From positions 1-64,000 of IMG/VR virus record IMGVR_UViG_3300037067_006298: a stretch of 64,000 nt of DNA; one strand, 5' to 3'. A program made the translations under genes and the position numbers. Under the pieces are notes generated by a model. The model worked only from the letters and a program-made list of their open reading frames with translations. It was not told the DNA's origin and made no database searches. Origin of the DNA: a virus. Its lineage: Duplodnaviria > Caudoviricetes. Below are positions 23,337 through 45,722 of the stretch, piece by piece (position 1 is the first letter of the stretch; each line of letters begins with the position of its first letter).

Positions 23337-24710
23337 CTATTTAGATTTTGGAATATATGGTTTTGTTGGTTTGCTCCAAAAGTTAGTCGGCAATGGAAGT
23401 TTCTTTGGAGTTACTGTTTCTTCTTTTGGCAGAATGTCTTTCAATGTCTTCATCTTCCCATCTACCTTTATTGGAAGTTTCTCTGCATCTGGTACATTTT
23501 TACGAGGAACTGCAAAGGTGGTGTTATTCTGTACCCATGGGTTCTGTGCTGCCTGTCCTGAACGGAAAATAAGCATATCTGTCTTAGGATCATAGAACCT
23601 CAGTTCAGCTTCAACGTCATCACCTCCTTTTATTTCATGCCATCCATCATCTCCCTTTGCAGGGTTAGGGTCTGAGTCATGTTGATAACCTCCTGCTGTT
23701 GGAACTTTAAACGTTTTGGTTGCAGTAAAGTCATATCTCTCGTTGTAATTTCTGCCTCCATAGATATTATCGTTCTTATGAAGTTCTCCCGGCGTGACTT
23801 TTGCCTGAGTACCAAGAAAGTTAAAGTTCAATCCTCCACCACCACCTGTTCCTTTTACTTTATCACTAAACTTTTGTGCCTGTTCAGGAAGTGAACTATC
23901 TATAAAGTATTCTTCAGGTGTTGCCATTGCAAGTGTTGAGTTTGGATCTTCTTTTTTGATACGTTCATGGTTTAAGGTAATTGATCTTTTTACAGATTCA
24001 TCGGCTTCCTGATACATCTGTTTAGCTGTTGCTCTTGCTTCGGCTATTTTCTCTGGAGTCCATACGGTTTCCTGTTTTTGCCTTGTAACTCCTGTTTCAT
24101 CAGTATAATCAACAGTTCGTGTATCGAGTACTGGCATCCTTTGTTTATTCTTTTGTACATACTCGTACATATCGGTCAACTTTGGTTTTTCTACAAGTAT
24201 CTTATTAAGATTAAGGTTCCGTGCTATTATCTCGTTATTATTTAACTCTTTTTGAATATTGTCCATGGTAGCACCAATCTCGAACTGTTCAGGATTTTGT
24301 TTAACCATTTGAGTAATTAAATCAATTGCCTCTTTATTTCTTCCCCAAGTATCAACTTTCTGTTTTAGTTTTGCATGTGCATCAGTAATGGCTTTAGACA
24401 TCATAACTTCATCAGATGTTCTTGGATTCATAAGATTCATACCTTTTCTACTCAGGTCTGAAAAGGTATTTAAAACCTTATCCTGATCTTCCATTATCTC
24501 CTTGAATCCTTTCTGATCCTCCCATCCTTTAAGGTCAACCATTAATTTATCCAATCCCTCGGCAGTATTCTTTTGGATTTGCTCTTGACGTTGTTTTTCC
24601 TGTTGGTATTTAGCAAGATTATGCCTTCTCGTGAACTCAATGGGATCATGTGATGATTCTCCAAGAAAGGGAGCTGCCTGAAAAGCTGGATCTATTGAAC
24701 CTTTTGCCAT
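23337..24710 (-). CDS. internal virion/ejection protein
   Basis: 457 aa helical protein between small and giant ejection-type genes. Confidence 0.55.
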   Translation of the reverse strand: MAKGSIDPAFQAAPFLGESSHDPIEFTRRHNLAKYQQEKQRQEQIQKNTAEGLDKLMVDLKGWEDQKGFKEIMEDQDKVLNTFSDLSRKGMNLMNPRTSDEVMMSKAITDAHAKLKQKVDTWGRNKEAIDLITQMVKQNPEQFEIGATMDNIQKELNNNEIIARNLNLNKILVEKPKLTDMYEYVQKNKQRMPVLDTRTVDYTDETGVTRQKQETVWTPEKIAEARATAKQMYQEADESVKRSITLNHERIKKEDPNSTLAMATPEEYFIDSSLPEQAQKFSDKVKGTGGGGGLNFNFLGTQAKVTPGELHKNDNIYGGRNYNERYDFTATKTFKVPTAGGYQHDSDPNPAKGDDGWHEIKGGDDVEAELRFYDPKTDMLIFRSGQAAQNPWVQNNTTFAVPRKNVPDAEKLPIKVDGKMKTLKDILPKEETVTPKKLPLPTNFWSKPTKPYIPKSK

Positions 24711-24785
24711 GGTATCTATTATTAAAAATCAGAATATCGCCATAATTCTTTTTTGACTTCTTCTATATTTATATTGATGTTATAA

Positions 24786-25502
24786 TTAATCACCTGTATC
24801 TCCTACTCCGGTACTTTTCCCTCTTACAGAATTTAATATTTTAGTTGCTTTAGCAATTTCTTCTGGCGTATATGTCGCAGCACCAACAGTTGATCCTCCG
24901 TTTAATAAAGAGGAATTAAAATCAGGAGAGATTAATTCTGCTGTCGATCCAAATGCGTTCTTTACTCCTGCAAATATATTCTGAGTCCCGGAATTTCTTA
25001 ACTGTGATGCCATTGCTGCTGCCTGTTGATACGGTTGTGCCTTATTGTAATCCCATACCCTGTTTTCTTCACCGGCTTTTACTCCAAGTGCGTTCATGTA
25101 TTCTCCCTTTGAACTTTGGACTTGCTGTGCGGTTAGTTTTGCCAAGTCTCCAAATGAGTTTTGTTCCCTTCCGACCATTTCTCCAAGTGCACCATAAGCC
25201 TCTGCGCCTGATCCGAGTTCTGATGCCTGTCTCAATCCTGCTGCGGTGGCTCCTTTGATCTCATTACGATACATTTCACCGCCAGGGATATCCTGATTAA
25301 GGGTTTGCCCATAGGCATAATTAGTAAGTTTGTTCACACTTGGAGCAATCTCTGCAACAGGTCTCTTGTATTGTTCTTCGAGTGCATTTGCCTTCTTTAA
25401 TTGAGATGCGCCCGTAATACCTTGATATATCGAGGGCACTAAATTAAGTACCTGAGAAATAATTGCTGCTGTCCCTAACATGGCTTTAAATATTACGTTC
25501 AC
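24786..25502 (-). CDS. Gly/Ala-rich internal virion/ejection protein
   Basis: Hydrophobic Gly/Ala N-terminus, Q/A-rich core; position directly after tail tip gene as in podoviruses. Confidence 0.6.
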   Translation of the reverse strand: MNVIFKAMLGTAAIISQVLNLVPSIYQGITGASQLKKANALEEQYKRPVAEIAPSVNKLTNYAYGQTLNQDIPGGEMYRNEIKGATAAGLRQASELGSGAEAYGALGEMVGREQNSFGDLAKLTAQQVQSSKGEYMNALGVKAGEENRVWDYNKAQPYQQAAAMASQLRNSGTQNIFAGVKNAFGSTAELISPDFNSSLLNGGSTVGAATYTPEEIAKATKILNSVRGKSTGVGDTGD

Positions 25503-28128
25503 TTAATGTTGAAAATATCACAACCGAATCAACTCTTACTTTTTCTGTGTGTTCATCAGTAGTAAGTTTTACAAAACAATATCTTCCTCTCATCTCTCGT
25601 CCATTTAACTTCTTACTTATTGTAGATGCAAATACACCTTTTGAGTTCTCGTCCCGCATTATCTTTCCATAATAAATTCCTTCCCTTCGATCAAATATAG
25701 GGATATTGGTTTCCATTATCTCATTAACTGCTGATGCTTCTTCTGGAATATAGGTAGATTTAGTAACGGATTCCAATAAGTGATCTGCGATAACGGCAAT
25801 GGCATTGAACACTTTATTTTTAGATGGTTCCATATTAGAAACAACTTCAAATTCTGCTTCGGTATCCGTTCCTGCCCACGATAAGAAATCCTGTCCTTCG
25901 TCTATGTTCATAATCCACAATTTCTGATTATACAAATGTGCGAAAAAATTCCCTAAGTGAAGGTAACTTTCCGTGATTTGATCTATCTCAGAAATATAAC
26001 GTCCTTTTTTCTCACTGAAAATGATACCCTTAACAGTACTTCCGATACGGAACGTGATCCATACTTCTTCAAAATCGTTATTTGCTCCAATATTCACAAC
26101 CAGAGATGAACGGCTACCGTCTGAATGAATCCATTTAGATAAGTCCTTGAACCATCTTGACATCTTATATTCTGCTCCCGATAGTGATATTTGCCCATTT
26201 GGAGCAGATCGGATAAATGCACCCTGTGAGTTATCCCAATAATACAGATTCCTCCCATTAACCGTGACACTATCTGGGTGTTGGCACCCATAATCTGTCT
26301 CCATAGGTCTTTGTTCTGCAAGGAACTTATCTGTGAGAGTGAATTGTTCTGTGCCATCAGGATTAAAGGTCTGTATCCGGTTAATGTAAATAGATGTCTC
26401 TTTATACATCTGGATAACCTTCAATGTGAATCCTACTTCCCTTAATCCTGTTATGTCTCCATTCTTCTTGGGAAGATCCATGAAGTCATCATAGGTGAAG
26501 TGTGCGATATTATTTGTCCGGGTTCCAGTTATAAGGAATCCACCATGTCTTATCCTTTCGTCAAGTACCGTCTGTCTCTGGCTCAAATCATCCAAGAACG
26601 GGAATCCTTGTGATGTGAGTTTATTGGAGATAATCTGATCTTTCCACCAATCACTCGGGAATATACTATCTGCCCAGAAAGGATAAATAATATTTGTTGA
26701 ATGCTTATAATTTAATCTTATTAATTTATAACAATCGTGTGCTGTATTATTAACTTCAGCAGGGGTAATTACAATTCCTTCGGCAGAAAAAGTTTGATCT
26801 ATATTCCCTTTATGATAACTATTTCCATTTGCATCTGTCGCAATATCAAATACCATTCCAGTACCATAAGGTGTTGTTATCCCTAATCCTTTTCGTGGAC
26901 GATAAACTTCAACTATTATATTTGTTGCACCCTCAAATATAGTAGGATGTTCTGCTGCCTGAACTATTAACCAATCTCCGCCCACTGCTTCTTCATCATA
27001 TTGCGTCCCCGTGGCTTCAATCTCGTAGTCATAAACGAAGTCGCTTCCGATAGCCTGTCCGTAACCGGTTCCTGCATCAATAGTCCCTACGAGTCTTAAA
27101 CGATCTCCTTCTTCCCATGAGTATGCGGGTACTTTCCATCTATTATTTTTGTTTTGAGTCCATTCAAACGTATCCGTGATATTTATAGAATACCGATTAT
27201 TTCCTAGTCCGTAAATATTATCTGCTCGTATTTGCATGAAATAGTCCATTGAGATATTTCCATAATAAACTATCTCATACGTTTCCGCCCATGATGGAGG
27301 TTTGTGAGATATCTTGAATTTAATAGCAACTCTTTCTTCTAATTTAGGACCACCTGATTCTGAATAGAAAGGGATATTGATGTTCATTAAATTTGTTTTC
27401 ATAACTGAACATTGTCTCCCTGCCCTATCCTTGTAAACAATGGCATATCCATGTGTAGCACCACATTTAAGATTATTAAAAGTTAAAGTGTATCCTTTTG
27501 GATATATAGATGCTTCATACACATAACCACTCATTGCCATATCTGGAAGAAAGAATAAAAAGATAGAATAATCTTGTTCAATTATTTGCTCCCACATATA
27601 GATTTGATTAGAAGGAGAACCTGCGACTACATCTATTCCTCCTCCTGTTAATGATGATTCTAGTCCTGCTTTTACATCAGTTAATGAATCCCCGATTCCT
27701 GGCACATAAGAACCAGAATACGATTCTCCTGCTGTGTTATTAATACTGACGTAATAAGTCGCTCCTTCATATATCTGATCGGGAATAACAAGTACTAATA
27801 CAACTTTTATAGTAGCATGGACACGTCCTCCACTCATAGGCACGAGCGTTCTTTCAGTCTCATAAGCATATAAAGCTAATCGTAATTGTGGATTAGTGCT
27901 CCCAATATCAATATATGTTATCTCACTGGATACCTGAATATCATCCACAACATCATAACCCTCGGTTATTTTTCCAAATACAAGTGCATTGCCTCCTACT
28001 AACTCCATCTGTCCTGCTATGATAGGGATATAAGTGAAGGGTTCTGCAACTATACTTGCATCTATTATCTCTTTTACCCTGTCATTGTAAAAGGATAAAT
28101 TATAATCCGAGTTATGACCTATTACCAT
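25486..28128 (-). CDS. tail tip (muzzle/stabilisation) protein, C-terminal part
   Basis: SFYND...PF.YIP..A..ME...N.LVFG...EGYD; YWDNSQG, LSG..YKMSRWF; C-terminal FNAI...REGIYYG.I.RD.NS...L.GREMRG. Confidence 0.7.
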   Translation of the reverse strand: MVIGHNSDYNLSFYNDRVKEIIDASIVAEPFTYIPIIAGQMELVGGNALVFGKITEGYDVVDDIQVSSEITYIDIGSTNPQLRLALYAYETERTLVPMSGGRVHATIKVVLVLVIPDQIYEGATYYVSINNTAGESYSGSYVPGIGDSLTDVKAGLESSLTGGGIDVVAGSPSNQIYMWEQIIEQDYSIFLFFLPDMAMSGYVYEASIYPKGYTLTFNNLKCGATHGYAIVYKDRAGRQCSVMKTNLMNINIPFYSESGGPKLEERVAIKFKISHKPPSWAETYEIVYYGNISMDYFMQIRADNIYGLGNNRYSINITDTFEWTQNKNNRWKVPAYSWEEGDRLRLVGTIDAGTGYGQAIGSDFVYDYEIEATGTQYDEEAVGGDWLIVQAAEHPTIFEGATNIIVEVYRPRKGLGITTPYGTGMVFDIATDANGNSYHKGNIDQTFSAEGIVITPAEVNNTAHDCYKLIRLNYKHSTNIIYPFWADSIFPSDWWKDQIISNKLTSQGFPFLDDLSQRQTVLDERIRHGGFLITGTRTNNIAHFTYDDFMDLPKKNGDITGLREVGFTLKVIQMYKETSIYINRIQTFNPDGTEQFTLTDKFLAEQRPMETDYGCQHPDSVTVNGRNLYYWDNSQGAFIRSAPNGQISLSGAEYKMSRWFKDLSKWIHSDGSRSSLVVNIGANNDFEEVWITFRIGSTVKGIIFSEKKGRYISEIDQITESYLHLGNFFAHLYNQKLWIMNIDEGQDFLSWAGTDTEAEFEVVSNMEPSKNKVFNAIAVIADHLLESVTKSTYIPEEASAVNEIMETNIPIFDRREGIYYGKIMRDENSKGVFASTISKKLNGREMRGRYCFVKLTTDEHTEKVRVDSVVIFSTLSERNI

Positions 28129-28137
28129 CTCGATAAA

Positions 28138-28554
28138 TTAACTTATATGAATAATACCAAGTGCGTTCCATTGGATTGTACTTGTTCCATTGGAAACTAT
28201 CTGGTTGGTCAAAAAGTCAATTTGTGCCCGTATTGGAGACGTTGCCGGATTTGTTGTGTCTTTATACAAGATACCATACCGGTAATTAAGGCTTGTGTTC
28301 GGGCCAATCACTTTATCTGTGGCATCAAGATAATAATTATTACCATCAGCCGTAGATGCTTTCCCTGCTATTGCGACACCTCCTGCGGTATATGCTCCCG
28401 ATGCTGCAACTTCGTTTGCGGAGACAGATGAGACATACTGTTGTGTCCCGGCATTAGGAACATGAGTACTGGTAAGTAACATGAGTTTCCATGTTTCTGC
28501 CACCCATACGTCAATAATCTCTTTTTTTACGAATTTAGGAATTAAACTTGCCAT
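28138..28554 (-). CDS. small fibre-associated structural protein
   Basis: KLMLLTS.H.P...Y......NEV..SG.YTAGG.A; family commonly preceding fibre genes. Confidence 0.55.
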   Translation of the reverse strand: MASLIPKFVKKEIIDVWVAETWKLMLLTSTHVPNAGTQQYVSSVSANEVAASGAYTAGGVAIAGKASTADGNNYYLDATDKVIGPNTSLNYRYGILYKDTTNPATSPIRAQIDFLTNQIVSNGTSTIQWNALGIIHIS

Positions 28555-28558
28555 AATT

Positions 28559-31027
28559 TTAAATATAAATAGTTGCTAAATCAATTACTACAATATCACC
28601 TGCCAATAAAGTAACATCAAGAACAATAGTCCCATTATAATAGTCATACATAGCAGATACACTACTTCTTCCCTGTACCACTCCATTTACTTTTGCTCTC
28701 CAATATAGTGTAAATGGGTTTGATCTTCCTGTTACCGGATCAAAATAAACAGACATATAAACATTTTTACTTCCACTCGTAGATGAGGCGTGTCCTATTG
28801 ACATTACTAATCCTGCGGGTTCAGTAGAATCCACTTCTACCGTACAATCAATAGCAGTCCCAACCGGAGGAGTACCTGTTGCCTGTTCTACAAAAACAGA
28901 AACAGTGTCTCCTAATGGGCCTAATCCTGCTACTACGGTTCCAAATGTAATTGCCTCTGACGGTTTTGCGCTTCCTGTATTTTCAGCAGTTGGGAATACA
29001 TACAAAGTATCTCCTGTATTAAAATACATCCCAACTACTAATTCGTATGTGCCTCTCATTATGGTTATCCATGACGGCTTCGATACAAGATACCCGTTAT
29101 AAGGTAAACAAGTGATTATTACATCTTGTTTTGATGAAAGTCCATATTCTGCTGCCGTCCATATCATGTGTACTAATGATGCTTCTATGCTCGATAGAAT
29201 AGTAACGGGCAGTAGTGCCGAAATGACTGTATTTACATAATCAGAAGCACTTTTTGAAATATCTTCAGTAGATAAATACACGTCAACGGTTTCTCCTGCG
29301 CTAATATTCCTGCCAAGAGATATGGTTTTTGTATTATTTGTGCTATTTACAACTGTAAAACTACCATACCCATACGGGAGCACTCCAATATTTGCCCTCC
29401 AAAACATAGTAAACGATATTCCAGAACCATAGTCAGAATTATCTACCCTGAATGAAAGATTAACGACATTACTTGCGCTCATTGCATTAGCCAAGGCATT
29501 AGATATTGTCATATCAGGGTCAACTACATCGGGGTCTTTCTGGAGGGTACAGGTTATTGCGACTGGTACAGGTTCTGTTGCTCCGGTTTGTTGTACAAGG
29601 ATAGAGGTACTATCTCCATAAGTATTTGACATTACAATATATCCCGTTCGAGCAACACCTACTACGGTGTTTTCTGTTGATGGAAACGCATAAATTATTT
29701 CTCCGTCAACCATTGTCATCCCGGCAGACATTACACTTCCCTCAGAACCTCCTCCGTTTCTTTCTATTGTAAGCCACGAAGGAAAAGATGTTAAGTATAA
29801 TGTTGTTGGAGCACAATCAATTGTAATTGATGATTTATTCGCATACCCATAGGCAGTGGCTCCCCAGTTCATTGCAGGAATGGATGAGACATAAGATAAT
29901 ACTACTGTTGGGAGAAGGGGTGTAATATTCATATTAACCACTGCACTACTTGGATTATTTACTGATATAACGGTCGGTGCGGGTAACGTCAAAGACATTG
30001 TGATATTTTCAGCATTGGTAGTTACTGATATTTCCTCTGCCCTCTCTTGTTCACTGAATTTGTCAATAGTCTCAATAAGATACCATTTTGAAGGATCGTC
30101 ACTGCTTCTACCAATGACTTCTATTGCTCTGACTTCTTCCCCCCCTGAGTTGACGGTTATCTTTAACTTATTATTGAGTGATATTTGCTCATTTGCAAGT
30201 CCTGTGGCAGTTTCTTCTTCTGCCTGTGGCACCGGAACAATACTTGCCGGGGAAAATGTGCTCTTTCTCCAATCCATGTAAACATACCGATATGCAACTT
30301 GAAATAATGTCTGCCTTAAATTATTTATCTTACGATTATCGTCTGATTGATATGTTACTATCGGAGGATGAGATGGGGGGGTTGGTTCAAAATAGAAATT
30401 CTTAACATTCATTGAATAATACGCATCTTCAATCAGGCATTTTAGGTCTAACCAATTTGCACCAGAATCACTTTTTGGCTCATTGCCATAATTAGAATGA
30501 ACAAGACTCTTATAGTATTTATTCCCATTAGAGACAATCTGGTCTACCCCATAACTTACTGTGGTACTCCATTCAACTGTTGTGGGATATTGACCATAAC
30601 CAATTTTAAGTGCAAATGATTTCTTTGCCCTCTCAATATCCATCTGGTAAATCGGATTCTTATTGTCTGTCCATATTAATCTTCCGTGTACTACTCGAGG
30701 ATTGTATATTTTGAAAAGAGGATCAAATCCGATGTTATTATTCTTGTCATAATAAACAACTGTCTGGACACGAGTGTCAATATTTATTTCAATTATCCAT
30801 GATGCCTGATAAAAGGTATCAATATAGAATACATAAAGATTCCTGTTTTCTGGATCAATACATTTCCCATTTAAAAGGATATTGGTGTATTTAGAATCTT
30901 CTTTAGAATTAATTACAGTTCCGTCAGAGATAAGCCTTACTGATCTCCAATGAGATTTTAATGCAACTGTCTTAGTGGCAACTGCACTGTTATAGGATAA
31001 GGATAATATTTTGGCTGTTGTACTCAT
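28559..31027 (-). CDS. tail tip protein middle part fused to two tandem BACON-like/Ig-like units
   Basis: LNGKCIDPENRNLYVF, LIWTDNKNP, PP..PP, LFQVAYRYVY.D...S.FSP, IEVIGR...WYLIETIDK; then repeated beta-rich units. Confidence 0.7.
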   Translation of the reverse strand: MSTTAKILSLSYNSAVATKTVALKSHWRSVRLISDGTVINSKEDSKYTNILLNGKCIDPENRNLYVFYIDTFYQASWIIEINIDTRVQTVVYYDKNNNIGFDPLFKIYNPRVVHGRLIWTDNKNPIYQMDIERAKKSFALKIGYGQYPTTVEWSTTVSYGVDQIVSNGNKYYKSLVHSNYGNEPKSDSGANWLDLKCLIEDAYYSMNVKNFYFEPTPPSHPPIVTYQSDDNRKINNLRQTLFQVAYRYVYMDWRKSTFSPASIVPVPQAEEETATGLANEQISLNNKLKITVNSGGEEVRAIEVIGRSSDDPSKWYLIETIDKFSEQERAEEISVTTNAENITMSLTLPAPTVISVNNPSSAVVNMNITPLLPTVVLSYVSSIPAMNWGATAYGYANKSSITIDCAPTTLYLTSFPSWLTIERNGGGSEGSVMSAGMTMVDGEIIYAFPSTENTVVGVARTGYIVMSNTYGDSTSILVQQTGATEPVPVAITCTLQKDPDVVDPDMTISNALANAMSASNVVNLSFRVDNSDYGSGISFTMFWRANIGVLPYGYGSFTVVNSTNNTKTISLGRNISAGETVDVYLSTEDISKSASDYVNTVISALLPVTILSSIEASLVHMIWTAAEYGLSSKQDVIITCLPYNGYLVSKPSWITIMRGTYELVVGMYFNTGDTLYVFPTAENTGSAKPSEAITFGTVVAGLGPLGDTVSVFVEQATGTPPVGTAIDCTVEVDSTEPAGLVMSIGHASSTSGSKNVYMSVYFDPVTGRSNPFTLYWRAKVNGVVQGRSSVSAMYDYYNGTIVLDVTLLAGDIVVIDLATIYI

Positions 31028-31030
31028 AAT

Positions 31031-32998
31031 TTAAGGGATATCACGCATACATCTTACTGCCCATCCCCATTTTTTATTCGCAGTATTAGTATTAAAATAA
31101 ATTTGATTATAATATGCAAATTTACCTAAAGCACTTATCGAACTACTTTCTGTTGCACTCCAATAATCTCCTTCATCGTTTATCTTTTGAAACACTCCAG
31201 TAGAATTTAGTCTCTGTCCCGAACCTAATAAACTAAAATTATATTCATCAGTTGCTCCTGTATTAGGTGTTGTCCAATGGGTTGTTCCCACCTCTTTTAA
31301 TTTACCACCTGCAACTGCACTACCCCCTAAAAATGTTATAAGTGTATCAAAATCTGTTTGGCTCGGTATTCTCCATCCCGCAGGTGCAAGTCCGTGAACG
31401 TTATCTACTGCATACCAATTATACAATGCTCCATAAGGTGTTTTGTTTACTATGTCATTATTATACCAACAGTATGCGCCAGTAACTACATAAATAGTAG
31501 ACTTTAAATCATAGGTAGGATATGTAGACCATACACCAGATACACTATGCCCCATCATACCTCCTGAATATACATCCCCGGTTTGAAAAGCGAGTGATAT
31601 ACAATTGTTTTGATCATGTGTAATAACGTCTTCGTATGACACGACAAAACAATACGTTCCCGCAGCAAGATCAATATTATTAAAAAGAAATATAGCCCCC
31701 GCTGATATATCACCCGGTGTTGCGATATTTAAAGAGTCTGCTATCTTTACTGAAGGGAGGTCTCCTACTGAAGTATAAATACTAAGTCTAATATTAAAGT
31801 TAGGGGAACCACCTAAAGACCCAGATAATTCGATACCGCTTACCGTGCTATTTCCTACTGTAAAACTCTGAGATATAGGGTTCTCAACCGGGGATGCCCA
31901 TGAACTTATATTACCGTTACTTGTAGAACTAATAACGAGATTACTCCCTGCATTAGTCCACTGGGTATTATCGGTTATATTTAATATTGGTGTTCCATCG
32001 GCATATTTAGTAGTCTTTAAATTCTCAACCAACCATTGTTGATTCCCGATGGTTACATAGGTATAAGCATTCCCATCCGCATCAACAACTCCATCAAGTG
32101 TTTTTATTGTTTGTATATTAGAATTATCTCCTGTCCCTACTTCATTATATCCTCTTACACGATAGTAGTAATTAGTAAATGGACTTAACCCAATAATGCT
32201 ATAAGTTAATACATTGCCTACATCAAGGTTATTATATCCTGCAACCAACGAAGTAAACAAGGCATCAGTAGCCACATCCAAATAATATCCAGTTGCGCCT
32301 CCTGCAATACTCCAGTTTGTTACAAATGTAGTTACGGTAATTTCACTTCCATTTAATGCTACAGGTGCTTCCGGCACTCCATCGTCCTGTAACCACAAAA
32401 GACAATTATTTCCAAGTAATTCAAATAACAAATCAAATTTACCTCCCGGGACTGCCGTAAACGCTGACAAGTCATCTGCTCCTGTATTAGGTGTTGTCCA
32501 TAACTCAGTACCGACATTCTTCATCTTCCCTCCTGCGATCATCACTCCACCAAGATATGTTAATAAGGTGTCAATATCTGCCTCTGTTGGTACTCTCCAT
32601 CCTGCCGGACAAAAGGTTGATGACATTATCTGATCATGCGTATATAGTCGTCCGTAAATAGGTGCGTTATCCTCGTCATCATCATAGACTTTTGAACCAG
32701 GATAATTAACATCATAGTTCTTTTTCATCCATGTCTGAGTCCCGATAACAATTTCATCATAGCCAGAATAGACAAATTGCCCTCCAATAGATGTACCATA
32801 ATATGTAATAGTTGAATCAGGTGAAATTAATATCCCTATCTCTCCTTGCAATGTTTCAAGTATCCCTTCCCCGTGTTGTTCGGAAGACCCTCCTGTACGA
32901 ATGTTCAATGCTCCAACATAGTCACCCTCAGGTAAATTTGCGGGGTTATCGTCTGAATTTAACCCACCAAAAAATCGTTTTTCTGATTTTATTTTCAT
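31031..32998 (-). CDS. tail tip protein N-terminus fused to FISUMP-FN3-FISUMP domains
   Basis: F.GGLNSDD....LPEGDY..ALNIR (aa 1-55); IGTQTWMKKN/YGRLY and IGNQQWLVENL/YGALYNWYAV...WAVRCMRD; FN3 W...GATGYYLDVA...GL.PFTNYYYRVR. Confidence 0.75.
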   Translation of the reverse strand: MKIKSEKRFFGGLNSDDNPANLPEGDYVGALNIRTGGSSEQHGEGILETLQGEIGILISPDSTITYYGTSIGGQFVYSGYDEIVIGTQTWMKKNYDVNYPGSKVYDDDEDNAPIYGRLYTHDQIMSSTFCPAGWRVPTEADIDTLLTYLGGVMIAGGKMKNVGTELWTTPNTGADDLSAFTAVPGGKFDLLFELLGNNCLLWLQDDGVPEAPVALNGSEITVTTFVTNWSIAGGATGYYLDVATDALFTSLVAGYNNLDVGNVLTYSIIGLSPFTNYYYRVRGYNEVGTGDNSNIQTIKTLDGVVDADGNAYTYVTIGNQQWLVENLKTTKYADGTPILNITDNTQWTNAGSNLVISSTSNGNISSWASPVENPISQSFTVGNSTVSGIELSGSLGGSPNFNIRLSIYTSVGDLPSVKIADSLNIATPGDISAGAIFLFNNIDLAAGTYCFVVSYEDVITHDQNNCISLAFQTGDVYSGGMMGHSVSGVWSTYPTYDLKSTIYVVTGAYCWYNNDIVNKTPYGALYNWYAVDNVHGLAPAGWRIPSQTDFDTLITFLGGSAVAGGKLKEVGTTHWTTPNTGATDEYNFSLLGSGQRLNSTGVFQKINDEGDYWSATESSSISALGKFAYYNQIYFNTNTANKKWGWAVRCMRDIP

Positions 32999-33780
32999 CT
33001 CTTGGGGGCCTGATGTGTCGTACTATAAAACATTTGAAGATATTCACTTGCTGTAAATGAATTACTAAACGATCTTAATGCCTCGATCTGTTGATCATAC
33101 TCTCTTTTAAGTCGTTCTTTTGCGTTATTTGATATACGTGGATCATTCTCGTCTCGTTGCCATAGAACGTATGCCCTGAGTGCAGCAACACACTCACGAG
33201 GTATCATGGATGATCCGTCTGTCTTTAATCCGGTTGAGATATATTCCATCACTATCTCAGATCGAGGGGAAGAACCAGAGAACACCAGTTGTCTGTTTTC
33301 TCTATCTACCCTGAAATAACAATCGTCAATGCCTCCGGGAAGGCCATACAGCCCTCCTACGAAAACACCATTCCGGTAATGATCACTGAAGAAGATGATG
33401 CTGGAAACCAAATCCGCTCCTATTGCTGCACCATAATAATTACCAATCAATTCCCCTGTGTCATCAAATGTTCTTGGAAACAATATGTTATCATTATGAG
33501 ATATGACTCTCAGTTGACCATTATAAGGATACCCTATTTTTATGTAATCAACAAAGTCGGATGGTAATTGAACTGTCTTCGCTGCGCTCATGTGTAAATA
33601 CACCACCTCGGAACCAACATCCAAGTGATACATGGCAAGGTCTTCCGAAAATCCTTCAATAGCTATCTGTACAAGCCTCTTATACTGAACAAGAGAATAG
33701 TCATTAAGTCTGTTTAGCACGGACATTATGACATAACGAATTGTTACTAAGCCACCTGTTTTCGGAGATATATTTGACAT
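32995..33780 (-). CDS. tail ring/tubular protein (paralog of 33802-34638)
   Basis: LP.DFVDYIKIGY motif; position between head genes and tail tip. Confidence 0.6.
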   Translation of the reverse strand: MSNISPKTGGLVTIRYVIMSVLNRLNDYSLVQYKRLVQIAIEGFSEDLAMYHLDVGSEVVYLHMSAAKTVQLPSDFVDYIKIGYPYNGQLRVISHNDNILFPRTFDDTGELIGNYYGAAIGADLVSSIIFFSDHYRNGVFVGGLYGLPGGIDDCYFRVDRENRQLVFSGSSPRSEIVMEYISTGLKTDGSSMIPRECVAALRAYVLWQRDENDPRISNNAKERLKREYDQQIEALRSFSNSFTASEYLQMFYSTTHQAPKR

Positions 33781-33801
33781 CTTATGAGGATATTAGTTTT
33801 C

Positions 33802-34638
33802 CTATGAGGTTTTCTTTGCGGACTGATGGCTTGTGGTATAAAGCATTTTCTTATACTCCTCCATTGCCAGTGCATTTTTGAAACTACGAAGCGATTCAAC
33901 GGCATCCTTGTATTCTGCTTTACGTCTTGTTCTTTCACTTTCCGGCACTTTCATGTCGTGTTCTACCATCTGCCACAAGATATATGCACGAAGGGGGATA
34001 ATAGTCTCTCTTGGCACCATAGAACTACCATCTGACTTCATCCCTGTTGAGATATACTCCAATACAATTTCTGATCTCGGTGTGTTTCCTGAAAATACTA
34101 TCTGCCTATTTTCCCTGTCAATGCGATAATAAGCCTGATCAACTCCTCCGGGTAATCCAAATAACCCTCCAATAAACTGTCCGTTACGAAAATGATCGCT
34201 AAAGAAAATTTGATTTGGATCTTCGGTGTCTGCCACGAATACTCCTCCGATTACTGCGCCATAAGTTGTATTCCCAATTGCAGTTCCGGTGTCTGCAACA
34301 AATATTCCTCCGATAGTACTCCCATAAAATGTTCTTGGTAACAGGATATTATCATTGCGTGTAATAAGCCTTATTTTCCCATCAAGAGGATAACCTACTT
34401 TAACAAAATCAATAAAGTCGGCAGGCAGCGGAACCGTCTTCGCTGCGCTCATGTGTAGATATACCACTTCAAGTCCTTCTTCGGAATGAAATAAACGAAG
34501 TTCCTCGATGCCTTCAATGGCAATTTCGACTAATCGCTTGTATTGTCTCATGGAATAGTCCTGCACCCTGTTTAAGACTTGCATTACTATATGTCTGATT
34601 GTTACCAGACCGCTTGTTTTCGGGTTCTCTACACTCAT
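33802..34638 (-). CDS. tail ring/tubular protein (paralog of 32995-33780)
   Basis: LPADFIDFVKVGY; strong similarity to the adjacent gene. Confidence 0.6.
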   Translation of the reverse strand: MSVENPKTSGLVTIRHIVMQVLNRVQDYSMRQYKRLVEIAIEGIEELRLFHSEEGLEVVYLHMSAAKTVPLPADFIDFVKVGYPLDGKIRLITRNDNILLPRTFYGSTIGGIFVADTGTAIGNTTYGAVIGGVFVADTEDPNQIFFSDHFRNGQFIGGLFGLPGGVDQAYYRIDRENRQIVFSGNTPRSEIVLEYISTGMKSDGSSMVPRETIIPLRAYILWQMVEHDMKVPESERTRRKAEYKDAVESLRSFKNALAMEEYKKMLYTTSHQSAKKTS

Positions 34639-37349: not shown

Positions 37350-39197
37350 TTATGTTAATGCAATTGTAGGTTCTGGTTCTGCACACTGTCTCTTGATAAA
37401 ATCGTCAAGATAATATGTGGTATATTTATTTGCTGCATTGCTTTCATTTGCATAAAATAATATTTCGTCCCACGTAACAGCCGGAGCAGAATTAGTGCAT
37501 AATGCAACTCCATCAATTTTAATTGTTGTACCAGTTGACAAAAATATAATTTCAACTTCATGCCATCCTGTTGTTACTGCAATTGTTGAATTTACCCATC
37601 CCCCATTAACATAATATCTCCAACTTGGACTCGTTATTATGGTGGCAGATACAGCAAGAACCCTTGTTAAAGCAAGTCTTATTTCTTCCATCATAAGGGT
37701 AGTTCCAGAAATAGTTAAACTTGTTATATATACCCAACATTTTATAGAATGTCTATTATCGTTAAATACTTTTGACATTGACGCAATCTTGGCTGTTCCT
37801 GTTTCTCCAGAATATAATTTGACACTATTTACACCGCTTCTTTTTTCCACAGTACTTAATGCAACTGTTGCATTCCCTGTAAGTGTTGTTTTCCAATTTA
37901 CTAAAGGAGATCCTGTATTATAAGTTAAATCGCTTGTTACAACTCTTGTATCCCAGTTTGCACCATTTTTATATGAAAAATAAATATAAAGCAATCCATT
38001 AAATAAAAACATTTTTGCACAAGCCCTTCCGTCTTGCATAATCCAAACCTCATCTGTTAGTTGAAATCCTGAAATAGGATTATTACTTTTTAAAGCATTT
38101 GTTGCCCAATCAGCCCCATAAACCCAACCCTCCGAAGATTCGATTAACATCCAATATTCACCATTAATAAATTGTACCGAAGGAGCAGCAAAATATAAAT
38201 GACCAAAATCAACATTGTTAAATACTTCAATCGCTGTTGCTGCTGCCAGTCCGTCAATGGTATCCGCAACCTTAACCCATATTTCACGAGTTGTTTTTAC
38301 AGGATAATTCCCACGATTCCAATAGAGATAATATTTTCCATCATTGGGATTTTTAAAAATTGACGAACCGTTGTTGTAATATCCCGCCTGTGCAGCAACG
38401 ACAGTAACTTCATCAGAAAAATTAATGCCATCAACAGAAGTTCTTTTCACGATATAAAAATCAGCTCCTGCATCTGCATAGTCCATATCATAAAATAATG
38501 TGAAAACGCCATTTTCATAAATGCAATTAGGCCATCGAGTAGATGCCATAATAGGATTGTCAGCATACTTTATCCAACCATCTGTCAATGAATTACTTCT
38601 TGCTAATCCTATTCCTTCATTCTGCGTACCGCAATAATACATCCAATATTTATAACCATCCAAATTAGCTTCAACCACACATGCTGTGTGTGTATCACCA
38701 GTTTCCCATGCTTCGGAAGCACTTAATACCTGAACTTCTGTTCCTAATTTTAAAAATGAGTTATTAAAATCAAATGAATCAAAGAACTCAAAAGTATTTC
38801 CTCCATCAGAATAAGCAGAAGTTATTTGTGAATTTCCATACCATAGATTTATAACTTTAATTGAATTTGCAGCAATCGAAGGAATTTTAACCCATATTAT
38901 ACTATCCCCAGAAGTGTTCCATGTTTCAATCCAATAATTAAGGAAATCATTTATGCCCACTCCTCCGGTATCCATAAAACGAATATCATAACCATTTGCA
39001 TTACATCTTGAATAATCAAAATTTGCAGTAGTCAAAGTAATTTTAACCTGATAATTAGTTAATGCTCCTCCTGAAGAATTATCAATAGTAATTATTGTAT
39101 TACGTGACTTCCAGTAACTCTTCCAAGAAGAGGAAGAAGCACCGATTCTTGGCTTTTTAAATCCAAATGGTTTTATGCCTATCTGTTGAACACCCAT
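37350..39197 (-). CDS. DUF2341 + glycoside-hydrolase-like beta-propeller + lectin-like virion protein
   Basis: NYQVKITL...FDYS......DIRF...YWIE.W.....IWVKIP.I (DUF2341); KYADNPI, WPNCIYENGVFTLFY, AAPSV..INGEYWM propeller repeats; beta-sandwich C-terminus. Confidence 0.65.
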   Translation of the reverse strand: MGVQQIGIKPFGFKKPRIGASSSSWKSYWKSRNTIITIDNSSGGALTNYQVKITLTTANFDYSRCNANGYDIRFMDTGGVGINDFLNYWIETWNTSGDSIIWVKIPSIAANSIKVINLWYGNSQITSAYSDGGNTFEFFDSFDFNNSFLKLGTEVQVLSASEAWETGDTHTACVVEANLDGYKYWMYYCGTQNEGIGLARSNSLTDGWIKYADNPIMASTRWPNCIYENGVFTLFYDMDYADAGADFYIVKRTSVDGINFSDEVTVVAAQAGYYNNGSSIFKNPNDGKYYLYWNRGNYPVKTTREIWVKVADTIDGLAAATAIEVFNNVDFGHLYFAAPSVQFINGEYWMLIESSEGWVYGADWATNALKSNNPISGFQLTDEVWIMQDGRACAKMFLFNGLLYIYFSYKNGANWDTRVVTSDLTYNTGSPLVNWKTTLTGNATVALSTVEKRSGVNSVKLYSGETGTAKIASMSKVFNDNRHSIKCWVYITSLTISGTTLMMEEIRLALTRVLAVSATIITSPSWRYYVNGGWVNSTIAVTTGWHEVEIIFLSTGTTIKIDGVALCTNSAPAVTWDEILFYANESNAANKYTTYYLDDFIKRQCAEPEPTIALT

Positions 39198-43392: not shown

Positions 43393-45684
43393 TTATGCCG
43401 ATACCGGAACTTGATTTTTTGCCGTGTCCTGAACAATACTTAAACTGGATTGAAGACCAAGTTTTTCCATATCTCTTGAATGTTGAAGTTGGGCATATTT
43501 CTCATCAATAGCTTTTTTGGCTTCATATAGTTTGATTTGTTCGTCTGTTTTGACTTTTTCCTCGTTCTCTAATAATTGATTTTTGAGTTGAATTGCTTCT
43601 TGTTCTCGTTGTTTATCTAAGTTCATATTGGCTTCTTGTAGTTTTTGTTGCTTCTCTTTGTTCTTTTTTGTTTTATAATTCAAAAATGCTTCAGCATATT
43701 TTAAACTACCAGACTCCAAAAGTCTTTCTATCATCAAAAAGTCAGCCAACTCAATTCCAATTATTCCATCCCTGTCCGGTGACATTGCCTTTGTCGCTGC
43801 ATTAAGAATACTTACTTTCCTCTCTCTCGTGGGTTTCGCTTCATATTTGATGAAGTAATTCGCATCTACGGTATCTGCACCAACGCTTATGACCTGTACC
43901 CCGATATTGCCTATTACTGGCATATATCCTGTATAGGCTTCTTTGTCGTGTTTTATAAGCAATTGCAGTCTCAGGGATATATTCTTTGCAGTTTGTTCTT
44001 TTAAGGTTATATAAGCTCCATAAATTGAGCGTAAGGCATTATTTGTTGCTGCCATTGCGATTTCCGATCCTCCTACTGACTGTTCAGGATTTGGAGTTGT
44101 TGCATCCGCTATTTGATTTATACCCGTGAGGTCACGAATAGCATTGGTATTAAATTCAAATATCGTGATGAACTCTCCAAGTTGCGCTCCGATGCCTCCC
44201 TTTAACTCTTCGATTGGATTACGTCCACTCGGGGTGTTCATTACTCCCTTATGAGTAGTTGCCTTCCAAATCAAATTACCGGTCTGTCTCTGTATTTTCA
44301 GAATTTCAAGAGGTTCCATCTTGTTCTTCCCAAGAGTCATGTTCTGTAAAGAGGTAAATTCGATAGCGATTCCGGGAGGTGATGCCATTGCAATAGCATT
44401 TTGCAACTTACAATAAGTTAGGGCTATCTGATGTAGGTGAGATTCTGAAAGACTTACAAGCGATCTGTAAGGTAGTTTATAAAGATGATACGATAATTCC
44501 ACTTCTTTCTTACCCGGACGTGGCACGTCAAACTGTAATCCAAAATCGTACACGTGATCTGTGCCTACTATCCATTTGCATTTATAAACAACTTTGATAT
44601 CAAACTTCTCAGTCTTTTTCTTATCTGTGTTATGAACTTTTCCCCATTCCTCATCATAGGTTAATTCAGTTCCGTATTGCGTTGTGCGAGTAGTACGGTA
44701 ACGACTATCTATTGAAAACCACTCACTATCCATTACATCAACAAGGAATCCATCATAAGTGCCTGAATGAGTATCCGTGCTGTATGAGTAAGTACTCAAA
44801 TCAGGATTACCGTTCATCCCTTCGTATTCCTTTGCTAATGCGAGGAGTTCTTCTTCTTTTATTTCAGGATTGAATTTACGGAGATCAGAAATAAGTACCT
44901 GAATCAACTCTCCCGCATATTCCATGTTTTTGTGATCAACCGATTTTGAGTATTGCCCGACAAAAACTGCGGGGTCAACGTATCTTACTTTTACTTTTTT
45001 GGTGTACTGATCGGTATAGTCTTTTGTTGCTGCACAATTTATCACGCAAAGGTCTCTGATTATTTGTCTCTTTATCTCTTTCCATTCAGAGATATAAAAC
45101 GTGTAATCAAGCCCCTGTTCAATCTCAATTTCCTTTGCGAGTTTAAATCCTCCGGCTCCTTCGTATAGATTTAGTTCCTCCATACTTTCAGGAACATATT
45201 CTCCTGTGCGGTCGATGCCCATAGATTGATCTATGTAATTGAGGATTTCTTTGAACTTCATCCGGTACTGCATATCCAATTTTGCAGATTCTTTTTCTTC
45301 CGTACTCGAAGGGTCAACTGCTGTTGCTACTACCTGGTGATCGGTTTGTTCCAACATCCCCTCTACTACCCTTAAAAATTTTGGCATGACAGAGAATACA
45401 TCCCAGTTGATATTCATGTAACCTGTCATCTTTGCATTGGGGTCTGCTACTTCGAGTAGTATTTTCTGATATTGACGTGGATCTTGTTTTCCGTCTGCTA
45501 ATTCTCTTAATGAAGCAAATTCACTTACGGTAGAAAATGGTATTGCGCTTTTGCCTGTCTTCCATCTTGAATACATGGCTTCGCACCACTTCTTTCCCCA
45601 TTCTTCATTTTTCTCTTTTGGATTAATGTCATCCTTTGGAAACGGATAACCTCCTTTGGTGTATTTTTCGAGCGAAACTGGCAT
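43393..45684 (-). CDS. portal protein (crAss-like)
   Basis: 763 aa after terL; ELR.LA.G.Q...Y, PKF..V..G, V.YVDP, Y...TGIN. Confidence 0.8.
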   Translation of the reverse strand: MPVSLEKYTKGGYPFPKDDINPKEKNEEWGKKWCEAMYSRWKTGKSAIPFSTVSEFASLRELADGKQDPRQYQKILLEVADPNAKMTGYMNINWDVFSVMPKFLRVVEGMLEQTDHQVVATAVDPSSTEEKESAKLDMQYRMKFKEILNYIDQSMGIDRTGEYVPESMEELNLYEGAGGFKLAKEIEIEQGLDYTFYISEWKEIKRQIIRDLCVINCAATKDYTDQYTKKVKVRYVDPAVFVGQYSKSVDHKNMEYAGELIQVLISDLRKFNPEIKEEELLALAKEYEGMNGNPDLSTYSYSTDTHSGTYDGFLVDVMDSEWFSIDSRYRTTRTTQYGTELTYDEEWGKVHNTDKKKTEKFDIKVVYKCKWIVGTDHVYDFGLQFDVPRPGKKEVELSYHLYKLPYRSLVSLSESHLHQIALTYCKLQNAIAMASPPGIAIEFTSLQNMTLGKNKMEPLEILKIQRQTGNLIWKATTHKGVMNTPSGRNPIEELKGGIGAQLGEFITIFEFNTNAIRDLTGINQIADATTPNPEQSVGGSEIAMAATNNALRSIYGAYITLKEQTAKNISLRLQLLIKHDKEAYTGYMPVIGNIGVQVISVGADTVDANYFIKYEAKPTRERKVSILNAATKAMSPDRDGIIGIELADFLMIERLLESGSLKYAEAFLNYKTKKNKEKQQKLQEANMNLDKQREQEAIQLKNQLLENEEKVKTDEQIKLYEAKKAIDEKYAQLQHSRDMEKLGLQSSLSIVQDTAKNQVPVSA

Positions 45685-45702
45685 TTATCAAAAGATTTTC
45701 AA

Positions 45703-45710
45703 CAAAGTTA
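45703..45710 (-). promoter_or_regulatory. -7 promoter box TAACTTTG
   Basis: In the 38-nt gap between terL and portal. Confidence 0.45.
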
Positions 45711-45722
45711 ATGTTTTATCTC

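What the first reader, a model, noticed from the sequence alone, without database searches (positions are those of the whole stretch)
25486..32998. Tail-tip (muzzle) protein split into three ORFs with adhesin cassettes at the break points
Seen: motifs I recall as one continuous crAss-like muzzle/stabilisation protein are spread over three ORFs. Piece 1 is aa 1-55 of 31031-32998 (GGLNSDD...ALNIR...ETLQG). Piece 2 is about 30880-30040 (LNGKCIDPENRNLYVF...WYLIETIDK). Piece 3 is 25486-28128, which starts mid-domain (SFYND...EGYD). Pieces 1 and 2 run in-frame into unrelated cargo (~1.8 kb and ~1.5 kb), and a separate 138-aa gene precedes piece 3. Joining gives a natural-looking WYLIETIDKFSEQERAE-MVIGHNSDYNLSFYND. 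Piece 3 has an atypical start context (TTTATCGAG-ATG, G at -3, versus AATT/AATC-ATG for many genes). Inference: either a propeller assembled from three polypeptides that display swappable receptor-binding arms at the tail tip, or RNA/DNA-level skipping that gives alternative tip isoforms.
Basis: partly seen in the sequence, partly recalled or inferred. Interest (0 to 1): 0.85.

Follow-up and report, generated by a model that had tools for sequence, protein, structure and literature searches.

The report
Three-piece phage tail-tip muzzle gene
In this complete 77-kb crAss-like phage genome the large tail-tip "muzzle" protein, one gene in related phages, is encoded as three neighbouring genes, and the first two pieces end in swappable sugar-binding-type arms, so the tail tip probably also serves as the host-recognition platform.

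Summary
Against an unsplit 1196-aa relative (P0131) the three ORFs align in order. P0001 aa 1-51 matches 1-51 (E 2e-11). P0002 aa 54-326 matches 71-338 (E 2e-45). P0004 aa 3-879 matches 344-1195 (E 1e-163). These are the only muzzle-like sequences in a complete genome with direct terminal repeats.

The unsplit relatives belong to the PhicrAss001 gp44 muzzle superfamily (hhalign probability 96.5%; 17 of 23 hit Pfam crAss_MUZ_C). All 42 sampled piece-3 proteins that start at the second break form one clade (SH-aLRT 100) nested among unsplit forms. All seven relatives with known layout keep both breaks, ATG starts and 138-150-aa middle gene. The anchors are conserved. The cargo varies (Fib_succ_major, FN3, Lcl_C, BACON).

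Best reading, about 85%: the three polypeptides assemble non-covalently into one muzzle that displays two sets of exchangeable adhesin arms. A complex model supports docking of piece 1 (0.80 against a best control of 0.01), but this may be recall of solved gp44.

I found no support for RNA- or DNA-level skipping. The "atypical start" claim fails.

This scan had already noted two-piece split muzzles in other genomes. A split nozzle was published in 2026 for phage A1002. I therefore rate this a new variant of a known kind.

The parts
32786..32998 (-). Piece 1 anchor: P0001 aa 1-71. It is homologous to the extreme N-terminus of unsplit muzzle proteins (inferred ring-joining segment plus the first strand of blade 1). 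Its ATG overlaps the stop of the upstream ring-like gene (ATGA).
   Evidence: BLASTP 1-51 = P0131 1-51, E 2e-11. hhalign 1-71 = unsplit 2-75, prob 97.6%. hhalign 1-37 = PhicrAss001 gp44 1-37, E 1.4e-3, prob only 17.7%. In the complex model residues 1-60 touch P0004 652-875 and P0002 66-90.
31031..32785 (-). Cargo 1: P0001 aa 72-655, in frame behind the anchor. It holds Fib_succ_major (about 80-200), FN3 (211-295), and a second Fib_succ_major (to 652) that is interrupted by an extra domain (about 337-506).
   Evidence: Pfam PF09603 E 9e-49 in 3 stretches; fn3 E 7e-5, below its cut-off. In relatives only the first Fib_succ_major is kept; the rest is replaced by Lcl_C, FN3, other Fib_succ_major domains or unassigned sequence. 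Contigs from two other metagenome runs carry a variant lacking 31482-31988, an in-frame 507 nt.
30908..31027 (-). N-terminal extension of piece 2: P0002 aa 1-40. It is conserved within the split clade and has no counterpart in unsplit relatives.
   Evidence: hhalign of piece 2 with the unsplit profile starts at aa 41. The extension is conserved in alignments A2 and A4. It is retained as an internal linker in the fused variant L029.
30044..30907 (-). Piece 2 core: P0002 aa 41-328. By position it corresponds to propeller blades 1-2, a small CBM5/12-like insert, and the IG1 domain of the muzzle.
   Evidence: hhalign prob 100%, E 2.7e-66 to unsplit 60-337. phrog_14478 positions 167-282. Elemo muzzle 44-153 and 172-283. 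Domain names are inferred from the gp44 description in PMC10172136.
28559..30043 (-). Cargo 2: P0002 aa 329-822, two repeated modules, each a BACON-like domain followed by a further domain.
   Evidence: P0002 itself has no Pfam hit. The 61%-identical L001 orthologue hits BACON PF13004 (E 1.2e-6, 28.8 bits, cut-off 25) at the aligned position. All Atlas structural neighbours are BACON proteins, but TM is only 0.24-0.35. Relatives carry FN3 arrays or short tails instead.
28138..28554 (-). P0003: a 138-aa conserved small protein between pieces 2 and 3. It is not part of the muzzle sequence. It is probably a small virion/tail accessory subunit.
   Evidence: No match to unsplit muzzle proteins. phrog_644, E 7e-16. 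Present in all 8 split loci examined. Absent from the sequence held around unsplit genes in L026, L030, L031, L032 and the elemo, Panino, cr113_1 and crAss001 loci. Homologues in actinophages sit just upstream of 'minor tail protein' genes. Fold resembles phage tail parts at Z 5.5-6.8, including GP4 fibre I 8jou_a at Z 6.2; all are below the level that excludes a common arrangement.
25486..28128 (-). Piece 3: P0004, 880 aa. By position it corresponds to the rest of blade 3, IG2 plus the large distal domain, blades 4-7 and the C-terminal MUZ_C domain.
   Evidence: BLASTP 3-879 = P0131 344-1195, E 1e-163. Elemo muzzle 288-452, 678-796 and 1095-1335. Pfam crAss_MUZ_C E 5e-5, 24.1 bits, below the cut-off of 27. 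Via the unsplit profile it matches gp44 1051-1368, prob 96.5%. The ATG start is conserved in all relatives.
32995..33780 (-). Upstream neighbour: 261-aa virion structural protein, paralogous to the next gene upstream (33802-34638). It occupies the position that the ring protein gp43 holds before gp44 in PhicrAss001.
   Evidence: phrog_13977 for both genes. Synteny with crAss001 gp43-gp44 and with the unsplit relatives L030 and L032.

Best explanation
The muzzle (nozzle-type tail-tip gatekeeper) of this phage lineage underwent gene fission at two surface-exposed domain junctions. It is now made from three separately translated polypeptides that reassemble non-covalently into the usual muzzle subunit, presumably six of each per virion.

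Piece 1 contributes only the N-terminal ~55-70 residues, which pack against the C-terminal part of piece 3. It then continues into a lectin-like arm (Fib_succ_major / FN3). Piece 2 contributes blades 1-2 and IG1 and continues from the end of IG1 into a BACON-type arm. Piece 3 is the body.

Because the arms hang from short conserved anchors at gene ends, they can be exchanged by recombination without touching the essential body. The muzzle therefore also serves as a modular receptor-binding platform. The 138-aa gene came in with the second break and is probably an extra small tail-tip subunit.

Shown: colinear homology, a single origin, long-term conservation, variable cargo, and no other muzzle gene in the genome. 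Inferred: physical assembly, stoichiometry, the adhesin function of the arms, and the role of P0003.
For: 1. Colinear, non-overlapping homology of the three ORFs to single unsplit proteins. These are the only such sequences in a complete 76.7-kb genome with direct terminal repeats.
2. The unsplit relatives are bona fide muzzle-family proteins. Their profile matches PhicrAss001 gp44 1051-1368 at prob 96.5%, E 9e-10. Of 23, 17 hit crAss_MUZ_C and 1 hits crAss_MUZ. The elemo protein hits crAss_MUZ_C at 1.2e-18.
3. The gene order ring-like genes, muzzle, two genes, giant protein is the same as in crAss001 and in the unsplit relatives.
4. The 42 sampled piece-3 proteins that begin at break 2 form one clade (SH-aLRT 100) nested among unsplit forms, so one change suffices. 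Three-piece genomes lie from the base to the crown of that clade. Identity within the clade is 47-76%, so the layout has persisted through long divergence.
5. In all seven relatives with known layout every piece starts with ATG. Stops are mostly TAA, and spacers run from -8 to +18 nt. The relative reading frames differ between genomes, which excludes a conserved readthrough or frameshift.
6. Anchors are conserved (mean column identity 64% and 72%), whereas cargo is replaced wholesale and varies within populations.
7. A natural variant (L029) has genes 1 and 2 fused, with cargo 1 as an internal insert. It sits deep inside the clade. This shows that the C-terminus of arm 1 and the N-terminus of piece 2 can be joined in one chain.
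8. The complex model of P0001 1-80 with P0002 1-345 and P0004 500-880 scores 0.80, against 0.01 for the best of 3 controls. That mark was reached by 58 of 80 solved complexes and by 2 of 110 mismatched pairs. The runs agree in at least 75% of their contacts, and partner pLDDT is at least 63.
9. There is a published precedent for a nozzle split into complementing proteins, one of which carries the fibre dock: phage A1002 (PMC13730344).
Against: There is no direct evidence that the proteins are made or are in virions. The phage is uncultured, and no RNA run is listed.

The complex pass may reflect the model's memory of the solved single-chain gp44. It scored only piece 1, and my own shallow alignments were used.

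Sequence similarity to gp44 itself is demonstrable only for the C-terminal third, and weakly for the first 37 residues. I could not obtain a fold model of piece 3 because the structure machine failed. The domain names at the break points therefore rest on positional inference from the paper.

The adhesin role of the arms is inferred from domain families only.
Confidence: 0.85

Rival explanations
1. RNA- or DNA-level skipping (intron splicing, ribosomal bypass, programmed deletion) removes the cargo and the 138-aa gene, giving a conventional one-piece muzzle, perhaps alongside arm-bearing isoforms.
For: The joins would be seamless at the protein level. In this genome P0001/P0002 and P0003/P0004 happen to share a frame.
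Against: No Rfam family, group I or II introns included, reaches even E 0.1 in 24500-34000. No direct repeats flank the cargo. Shared frames are not conserved in relatives. The cargo is long, in frame and made of recognised, evolving protein domains. Every piece keeps its own ATG. The one natural fusion keeps the cargo. Contigs from four metagenome runs show no joint at 32830/30880 or 30040/28128; this is weak evidence, because contigs drop rare forms.
Confidence: 0.03
2. Only piece 3 still works as a truncated muzzle. The anchor segments of genes 1 and 2 are relics, and those genes now act as independent fibres attached elsewhere.
For: Pieces 1 and 2 are dominated by fibre-like domains. Piece 3 holds most of the protein, including the gate-bearing propeller blades and the distal domain.
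Against: The anchors are the most conserved parts of genes 1 and 2, across 47-76% identity relatives. Piece 3 alone would lack the N-terminal segment and two of the seven blades, leaving an open propeller. The complex model places piece 1 against piece 3 with high confidence, and this depends on piece 3: replacing chain 3 gives 0.01.
Confidence: 0.07
3. The split is an assembly, sequencing or gene-calling artefact, or the result of stop-codon reassignment.
For: Some crAss-like phages are known to recode TAG or TGA (PMC12386605).
Against: The same four-gene layout appears in at least 8 independent IMG/VR and JGI contigs from different samples, and the sequence appears in contigs from four studies. 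The stops in this genome are TAA, and reading through them would still include the cargo.
Confidence: 0.01

Closest known systems
PhicrAss001 gp44 muzzle protein (Bayfield et al. 2023, PMC10172136; Pfam crAss_MUZ PF25731 and crAss_MUZ_C PF25729)
   Same: Same genomic position, after the ring-protein genes and before the cargo and giant-protein genes. Homologous C-terminal propeller/MUZ_C region (via the profile of unsplit relatives, prob 96.5%). Similar first ~37 residues, though this match is weak (prob 17.7%). The paper notes length variation from insertions, which fits the variable region seen in piece 3.
   Different: gp44 is one 1371-aa chain. Here the same colinear sequence is divided among three genes. 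Two of them are extended by about 580 and about 490 residues of lectin/BACON-type domains, and a 138-aa gene is intercalated. Direct sequence similarity to gp44 is weak. The distal 'crass fold' could not be checked structurally.
Unsplit ~1200-aa muzzle proteins of the sister lineage (e.g. P0131, P0130, P0139; environmental metagenomes), and the 1493-aa structural protein of Flavobacterium phage vB_FspP_elemo
   Same: 31-49% identical over all three pieces, in the same order. Same flanking genes.
   Different: One gene. No arms at the two junctions, although P0137 has an insertion of up to about 215 aa at the first junction. No P0003-like gene in the sequence held around them.
Split nozzle of Pseudomonas podophage A1002 (gp39 nozzle-rope plus gp42 nozzle-base; PMC13730344, 2026)
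   Same: One ancestral nozzle is partitioned into polypeptides that complement a single beta-propeller/platform. One piece carries an extension that serves host attachment. Small ~140-aa gp80-like fibre subunits are associated.
   Different: A1002 has two pieces, not three. The phage group is different, and no sequence homology was tested. In A1002 the extension is a rope that docks separate fibre dimers; here the extensions are themselves folded lectin-like domains. The resemblance of P0003 to gp80-type subunits is only Z 6.2.
Two-piece split crAss-type muzzles noted earlier in this scan on other genomes (e1-5247103, e1-5354345, e1-3261543)
   Same: The same idea: the muzzle gene is cut at a display loop, with adhesin-type domains ending the first piece.
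   Different: Those have two pieces. This lineage has two breaks and three pieces plus an intercalated small gene. They are unchecked AI notes and I did not use them as evidence.

Membership tests
crAss-type muzzle protein (gp44-like; PF25731/PF25729) | C-terminal propeller blades plus MUZ_C domain homologous to gp44 | tested here: met
   P0004 alone: crAss_MUZ_C E 5e-5, 24.1 bits, just under the cut-off of 27. P0004 3-879 matches unsplit P0131 344-1195 at E 1e-163. The unsplit profile matches gp44 1051-1368 at prob 96.5%, E 9e-10. Of 23 unsplit relatives, 17 hit PF25729.
crAss-type muzzle protein (gp44-like; PF25731/PF25729) | N-terminal ring-joining segment at residue 1 | tested here: inconclusive
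   P0001 1-37 against gp44 1-37: hhalign E 1.4e-3 but probability only 17.7%. Homology to the N-terminus of unsplit relatives is strong (E 2e-11; prob 97.6%). Its role in ring joining is inferred.
crAss-type muzzle protein (gp44-like; PF25731/PF25729) | IG2 plus the large distal 'crass fold' domain | tested here: inconclusive
   P0004 6-144 and 217-334 align to the elemo muzzle at 288-452 and 678-796 (E 1e-5 and 2e-4). There is no direct match to gp44 in this region. The structure prediction of P0004 failed three ways (and later), so no fold comparison was made.
crAss-type muzzle protein (gp44-like; PF25731/PF25729) | All domains on one polypeptide | tested here: not met
   Three ORFs with their own ATG and stop codons, conserved in the clade. 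The system is homologous to the family in sum, but no single gene is a full member.
crAss-type muzzle protein (gp44-like; PF25731/PF25729) | Gene position between ring-protein genes and cargo/giant virion protein genes | tested here: met
   The homology of the 2497-aa protein to crAss RNA polymerase subunits was not shown.
Split nozzle (A1002 gp39/gp42 type) | Nozzle domains divided among separately encoded proteins that complement one another | tested here: met
   Met by homology to unsplit proteins. Also by the complex model: 0.80 against 0.01 for the best control; the mark was reached by 58 of 80 solved complexes and 2 of 110 mismatched pairs. Physical assembly was not observed.
Split nozzle (A1002 gp39/gp42 type) | Sequence or structural homology to A1002 gp39/gp42 | not tested
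The break points differ by description.
GP4 gp80-type fibre subunit (PF23140), for P0003 | Sequence membership or a clear fold match | tested here: inconclusive
   No Pfam hit even at E 10. Atlas feature lead 0.87, with only 23% of cluster members carrying PF23140. Foldseek 8jou_a: TM 0.42, E 1.7. VIA Z 6.2, rmsd 3.8 over 103 residues, tied with the Bxb1 tail-tip, KP1 baseplate and A511 gp105 chains. Model pLDDT is only 65.
Self-splicing intron, or another excision element around the cargo | Recognisable intron RNA structure, or flanking repeats at the junctions | tested here: not met
   No Rfam match better than E 0.19, and none to an intron family. No direct or inverted repeats at the junctions. 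An undescribed element cannot be excluded.

The most novel reading that the evidence does not exclude
The muzzle of this clade is a three-protein machine, or four-protein if P0003 is counted, whose essential gatekeeper subunit has been opened at two loops. Twelve exchangeable adhesin arms per virion (six lectin-type, six BACON-type) then grow directly out of the DNA-ejection gate. Receptor binding by an arm would be mechanically coupled to gate opening through the very strands that complete the propeller. P0003, acquired with the second break, would be a gp80-like subunit that decorates or locks this junction.
Probability: 0.25. Interest if true: 0.75.

Novelty: new variant of a known kind. 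Interest (0 to 1): 0.6.

Why it matters
The receptor-binding apparatus of crAss-like phages is poorly understood. For PhicrAss001 the muzzle was proposed to contact the cell surface and to gate ejection.

A whole environmental clade makes this protein from three genes, with swappable carbohydrate-binding-type arms at the two breaks. This gives a natural map of where the muzzle tolerates insertion and fission. It also gives a testable model in which host recognition sits on the gate itself. The clade has at least 85 protein clusters at 90% identity and about 30 at 50%.

The clade is also a clean example of protein evolution. Fission arose once, was kept through long divergence, and was re-fused once with the insert retained. 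It offers a practical rule for annotating 'missing' or 'truncated' muzzle genes in metagenomic phages.

Tried and rejected
- tblastn of P0004 and P0002 against 50,697 phage records at E 1e-5 found no match. Only short weak hits appeared at E up to 1; these led to the elemo, Panino, Cellulophaga and cr113_1 muzzle genes.
- phmmer of each piece against PDB sequences found no muzzle hit. The HMM of unsplit relatives against PDB did not find gp44, only a chitin-binding-domain-like stretch.
- Profiles of piece 2 and piece 3 against gp44 directly were not significant. A deeper profile of unsplit relatives was needed.
- The search for related loci with P0131 in viral contigs found nothing.
- P0003 against the 135-aa gene downstream of the elemo muzzle showed no similarity.
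- Sequencing runs: no RNA holder is listed.
- Read laying on contigs from four landfill and groundwater runs showed no joint that fuses the pieces. One low-support joint (30898 to 32470, side 25, intervening letters unknown) probably comes from a related phage with a different cassette.
- Structure prediction of P0004 (full length, and aa 1-520) failed: the job was interrupted twice, then the machine did not answer. Piece 3 therefore has no fold comparison.
- The readthrough/frameshift idea was rejected because relative frames vary among relatives.
- The second-muzzle-gene idea was rejected.
- The 'atypical start context' claim was rejected.
Full report
**What is there.** Four tightly packed genes lie on the - strand.
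- P0001, 31031-32998, 655 aa.
- P0002, 28559-31027, 822 aa.
- P0003, 28138-28554, 138 aa.
- P0004, 25486-28128, 880 aa.

The P0001 ATG overlaps the stop of the upstream gene (ATGA). The next three starts follow the preceding TAA by 3, 4 and 9 nt. The window belongs to a complete 76,666-bp virus record with direct terminal repeats. Portal and large terminase lie at 43393-47945. Two paralogous ring-like structural genes sit just upstream of P0001. Downstream of P0004 come genes of 238 aa, 457 aa and a giant 2497 aa. This is the order around gp44 in PhicrAss001.

First hints came from PHROGs. P0002 212-327 and P0004 536-777 hit the same 1474-position family at positions 167-282 and 966-1213. P0004 also hit Pfam crAss_MUZ_C just under its cut-off. 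Weak tblastn hits led to the 1493-aa structural protein of Flavobacterium phage elemo. That protein is a solid crAss_MUZ_C member (1.2e-18), and all pieces align to it in order.

The decisive result came from an exhaustive profile search with the piece-2 N-terminus. The best ~30 representatives match from their residue 1 and have very different lengths (398-1219 aa); these are the split form. The next tier is ~1190-1250-aa proteins that match from about residue 60-75; these are the unsplit form. BLASTP against 11 of the unsplit proteins gives, for P0131 (1196 aa):
- P0001 1-51 = 1-51 (49% identity, E 2e-11);
- P0002 54-326 = 71-338 (E 1.7e-45);
- P0004 3-879 = 344-1195 (E 1e-163);
- P0003 has no match.

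Profile-profile comparisons agree. Searching the phage's own genome with P0131 finds exactly these three places and no other.

**It is a muzzle.** The profile of 23 unsplit relatives aligns to PhicrAss001 gp44 1051-1368 with probability 96.5%. Of these relatives, 17 hit crAss_MUZ_C and one hits crAss_MUZ. The first 37 residues of piece 1 align to the first 37 of gp44, but only weakly (E 1.4e-3, probability 17.7%).

Bayfield et al. (PMC10172136) describe gp44 as follows: a ring-joining domain; a seven-bladed propeller; IG1 (163-292) between blades 2 and 3; and IG2 plus the 'crass fold' (318-1021) inserted into blade 3. By position, break 1 then lies between the N-terminal segment and blade 1, and break 2 lies directly after IG1. 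This mapping is inference. I could not get a structural model of piece 3 because the prediction service failed repeatedly.

**Fine structure of the breaks.** Break 2 is clean: about 5 residues of the unsplit protein lie between the end of the piece-2 core and residue 3 of piece 3. At break 1, unsplit positions 60-75 are matched both by P0001 56-71 and by P0002 41-57, so a short stretch seems to be present on both sides. P0002 residues 1-40 have no unsplit counterpart but are conserved within the clade.

**It is conserved design, not accident.** Seven distinct relatives from IMG/VR (49-76% identical in piece 3) have the same four genes in the same order. Every piece starts with ATG. Stops are TAA in 18 of 21 cases. 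Spacers run from -8 to +18 nt. The relative frames of neighbouring genes differ between genomes, so a conserved readthrough or frameshift product is excluded.

In a tree of the piece-3 region, the 42 sampled proteins that begin at break 2 form one clade (SH-aLRT 100) nested among unsplit forms, and one change explains the distribution. Genomes known to have three pieces lie from the base to the crown of that clade.

One genome (L029) has genes 1 and 2 fused into an 861-aa protein. In it the lectin-type cargo sits as an internal insert, and the piece-2 N-terminal extension serves as a linker. L029 lies deep inside the clade, so this is most simply a secondary re-fusion. In the window the two genes are in one frame, separated only by TAA ATT. 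An unsplit relative (P0137) carries extra sequence, up to about 215 aa, at the same first junction, which marks it as an insertion hot spot.

**The cargo.**
- P0001 72-655 holds Fib_succ_major, FN3, and a second Fib_succ_major interrupted by an extra domain. In relatives only the first Fib_succ_major is constant. The rest is Lcl_C, FN3, further Fib_succ_major or unassigned sequence.
- P0002 329-822 has no Pfam hit of its own. Its 61%-identical orthologue in L001 hits BACON above the cut-off at the aligned position. All Atlas structural neighbours are BACON proteins, at low TM. Relatives carry FN3 arrays or short tails instead.
- Contigs from other landfill and groundwater samples carry an in-frame 507-nt shorter cargo 1 and replaced segments.

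'Adhesin cassettes' is therefore a fair description of the domain types and their turnover. Binding itself is inferred.

**P0003.** This protein is not part of the muzzle sequence. It is present in all eight split loci. It is absent from the sequence held around unsplit muzzle genes of the sister group and from the elemo, Panino, cr113_1 and crAss001 loci. Its family (phrog_644) occurs in unrelated actinophages and Caulobacter phages, in actinophages directly upstream of 'minor tail protein' genes.

A medium-confidence model (pLDDT 65) resembles small phage tail parts at Z 5.5-6.8. These include the GP4 fibre I subunit (8jou_a, Z 6.2), a Bxb1 tail-tip chain and A511 gp105. The Atlas gave the same lead. 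All these scores are below the level that excludes a common arrangement. I read P0003 as a small tail accessory subunit that arrived with the break-2 cassette. This is a hypothesis.

**Mechanism.** The best reading is non-covalent reassembly of three separately translated chains. A three-chain model was run with P0001 1-80 as the partner in question, plus P0002 1-345 and P0004 500-880. It scored 0.80, against 0.01 for the best of three controls. That mark was reached by 58 of 80 solved complexes and by 2 of 110 mismatched pairs. The runs agree in at least 75% of their contacts, and partner pLDDT is at least 63. Piece 1 residues 1-60 touch P0004 652-875 and P0002 66-90, and replacing piece 3 abolishes the score.

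Because single-chain gp44 is solved, this pass may show likeness and not binding. A published parallel exists: phage A1002 splits its nozzle into two complementing proteins, one of which carries the fibre dock (PMC13730344).

**Rivals.** Skipping at the RNA or DNA level finds no support:
- no intron-like RNA family;
- no flanking repeats;
- no joined contigs (weak evidence);
- the natural fusion retains the cargo.

A relic scenario is contradicted because the anchors are the best-conserved parts of genes 1 and 2. An artefact is excluded by many independent contigs.

**Novelty.** I found no paper describing a split crAss-type muzzle. This scan has, however, already noted two-piece split muzzles on other genomes (unchecked AI notes), and the A1002 split nozzle is published. 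The three-piece layout is new in three respects:
- it has two arm types;
- it has an intercalated small gene;
- it has a documented secondary re-fusion.

I therefore rate it a new variant of a known kind.

Noticed in passing
window 30452-30574 (P0002 aa ~152-192): A small CBM5/12-like (chitin-binding-domain-like) motif lies between the blade 1-2 region and IG1. Pfam CBM_5_12 gives E 0.18. The profile of unsplit relatives hits the chitinase A1 binding domain 1ed7_A at E 0.008. Several profile-search hits carry many tandem copies of this stretch.
   Followed up: partly
window 31482-31988: Contigs from two other metagenome runs (X3, X4) skip exactly 507 nt (169 codons, in frame) of cargo 1, and depth there drops to near zero in those runs. 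The L001 orthologue lacks the same domain.
   Followed up: partly
window 26719-27986 (P0004 aa ~48-470): This variable stretch of piece 3 has lower contig depth in X3 and X4, and a replaced 484-nt segment in X1 (27465-27950). P0145 lacks the part corresponding to P0004 aa 68-219. This fits the insertion-prone IG2/distal domain described for gp44.
   Followed up: partly
L001:4775-5587 (also L003; truncated in L002): A 270-aa ORF beginning with a GIY...YIG-like motif sits between the ring-like gene and gene 1 in three related contigs but not in the window. It is a likely homing endonuclease insertion. No family search was run.
   Followed up: no
L024 (Maribacter phage Panino) 8521-11361 and 11472-12434: The weak match of the piece-3 C-terminal half spans two annotated CDSs (946 aa and 320 aa). 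The Panino muzzle may therefore be split at a different, more C-terminal place.
   Followed up: no
window 31028-31033 and 28129-28140: P0001/P0002 and P0003/P0004 are each in the same frame, separated only by TAA plus 3 or 9 nt. A single base change would fuse them, as has happened for genes 1 and 2 in L029.
   Followed up: yes
window 37350-39197: A 615-aa protein with a DUF2341 domain (E 6e-17) lies in the structural block. It may be a further fibre or adhesin.
   Followed up: no
whole window: The genome is a complete 76.7-kb record with direct terminal repeats. Near-identical sequence occurs in landfill and groundwater metagenomes from four studies. The host is unknown; the BACON and Fib_succ_major domains hint at Bacteroidota or Fibrobacterota.
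   Followed up: partly
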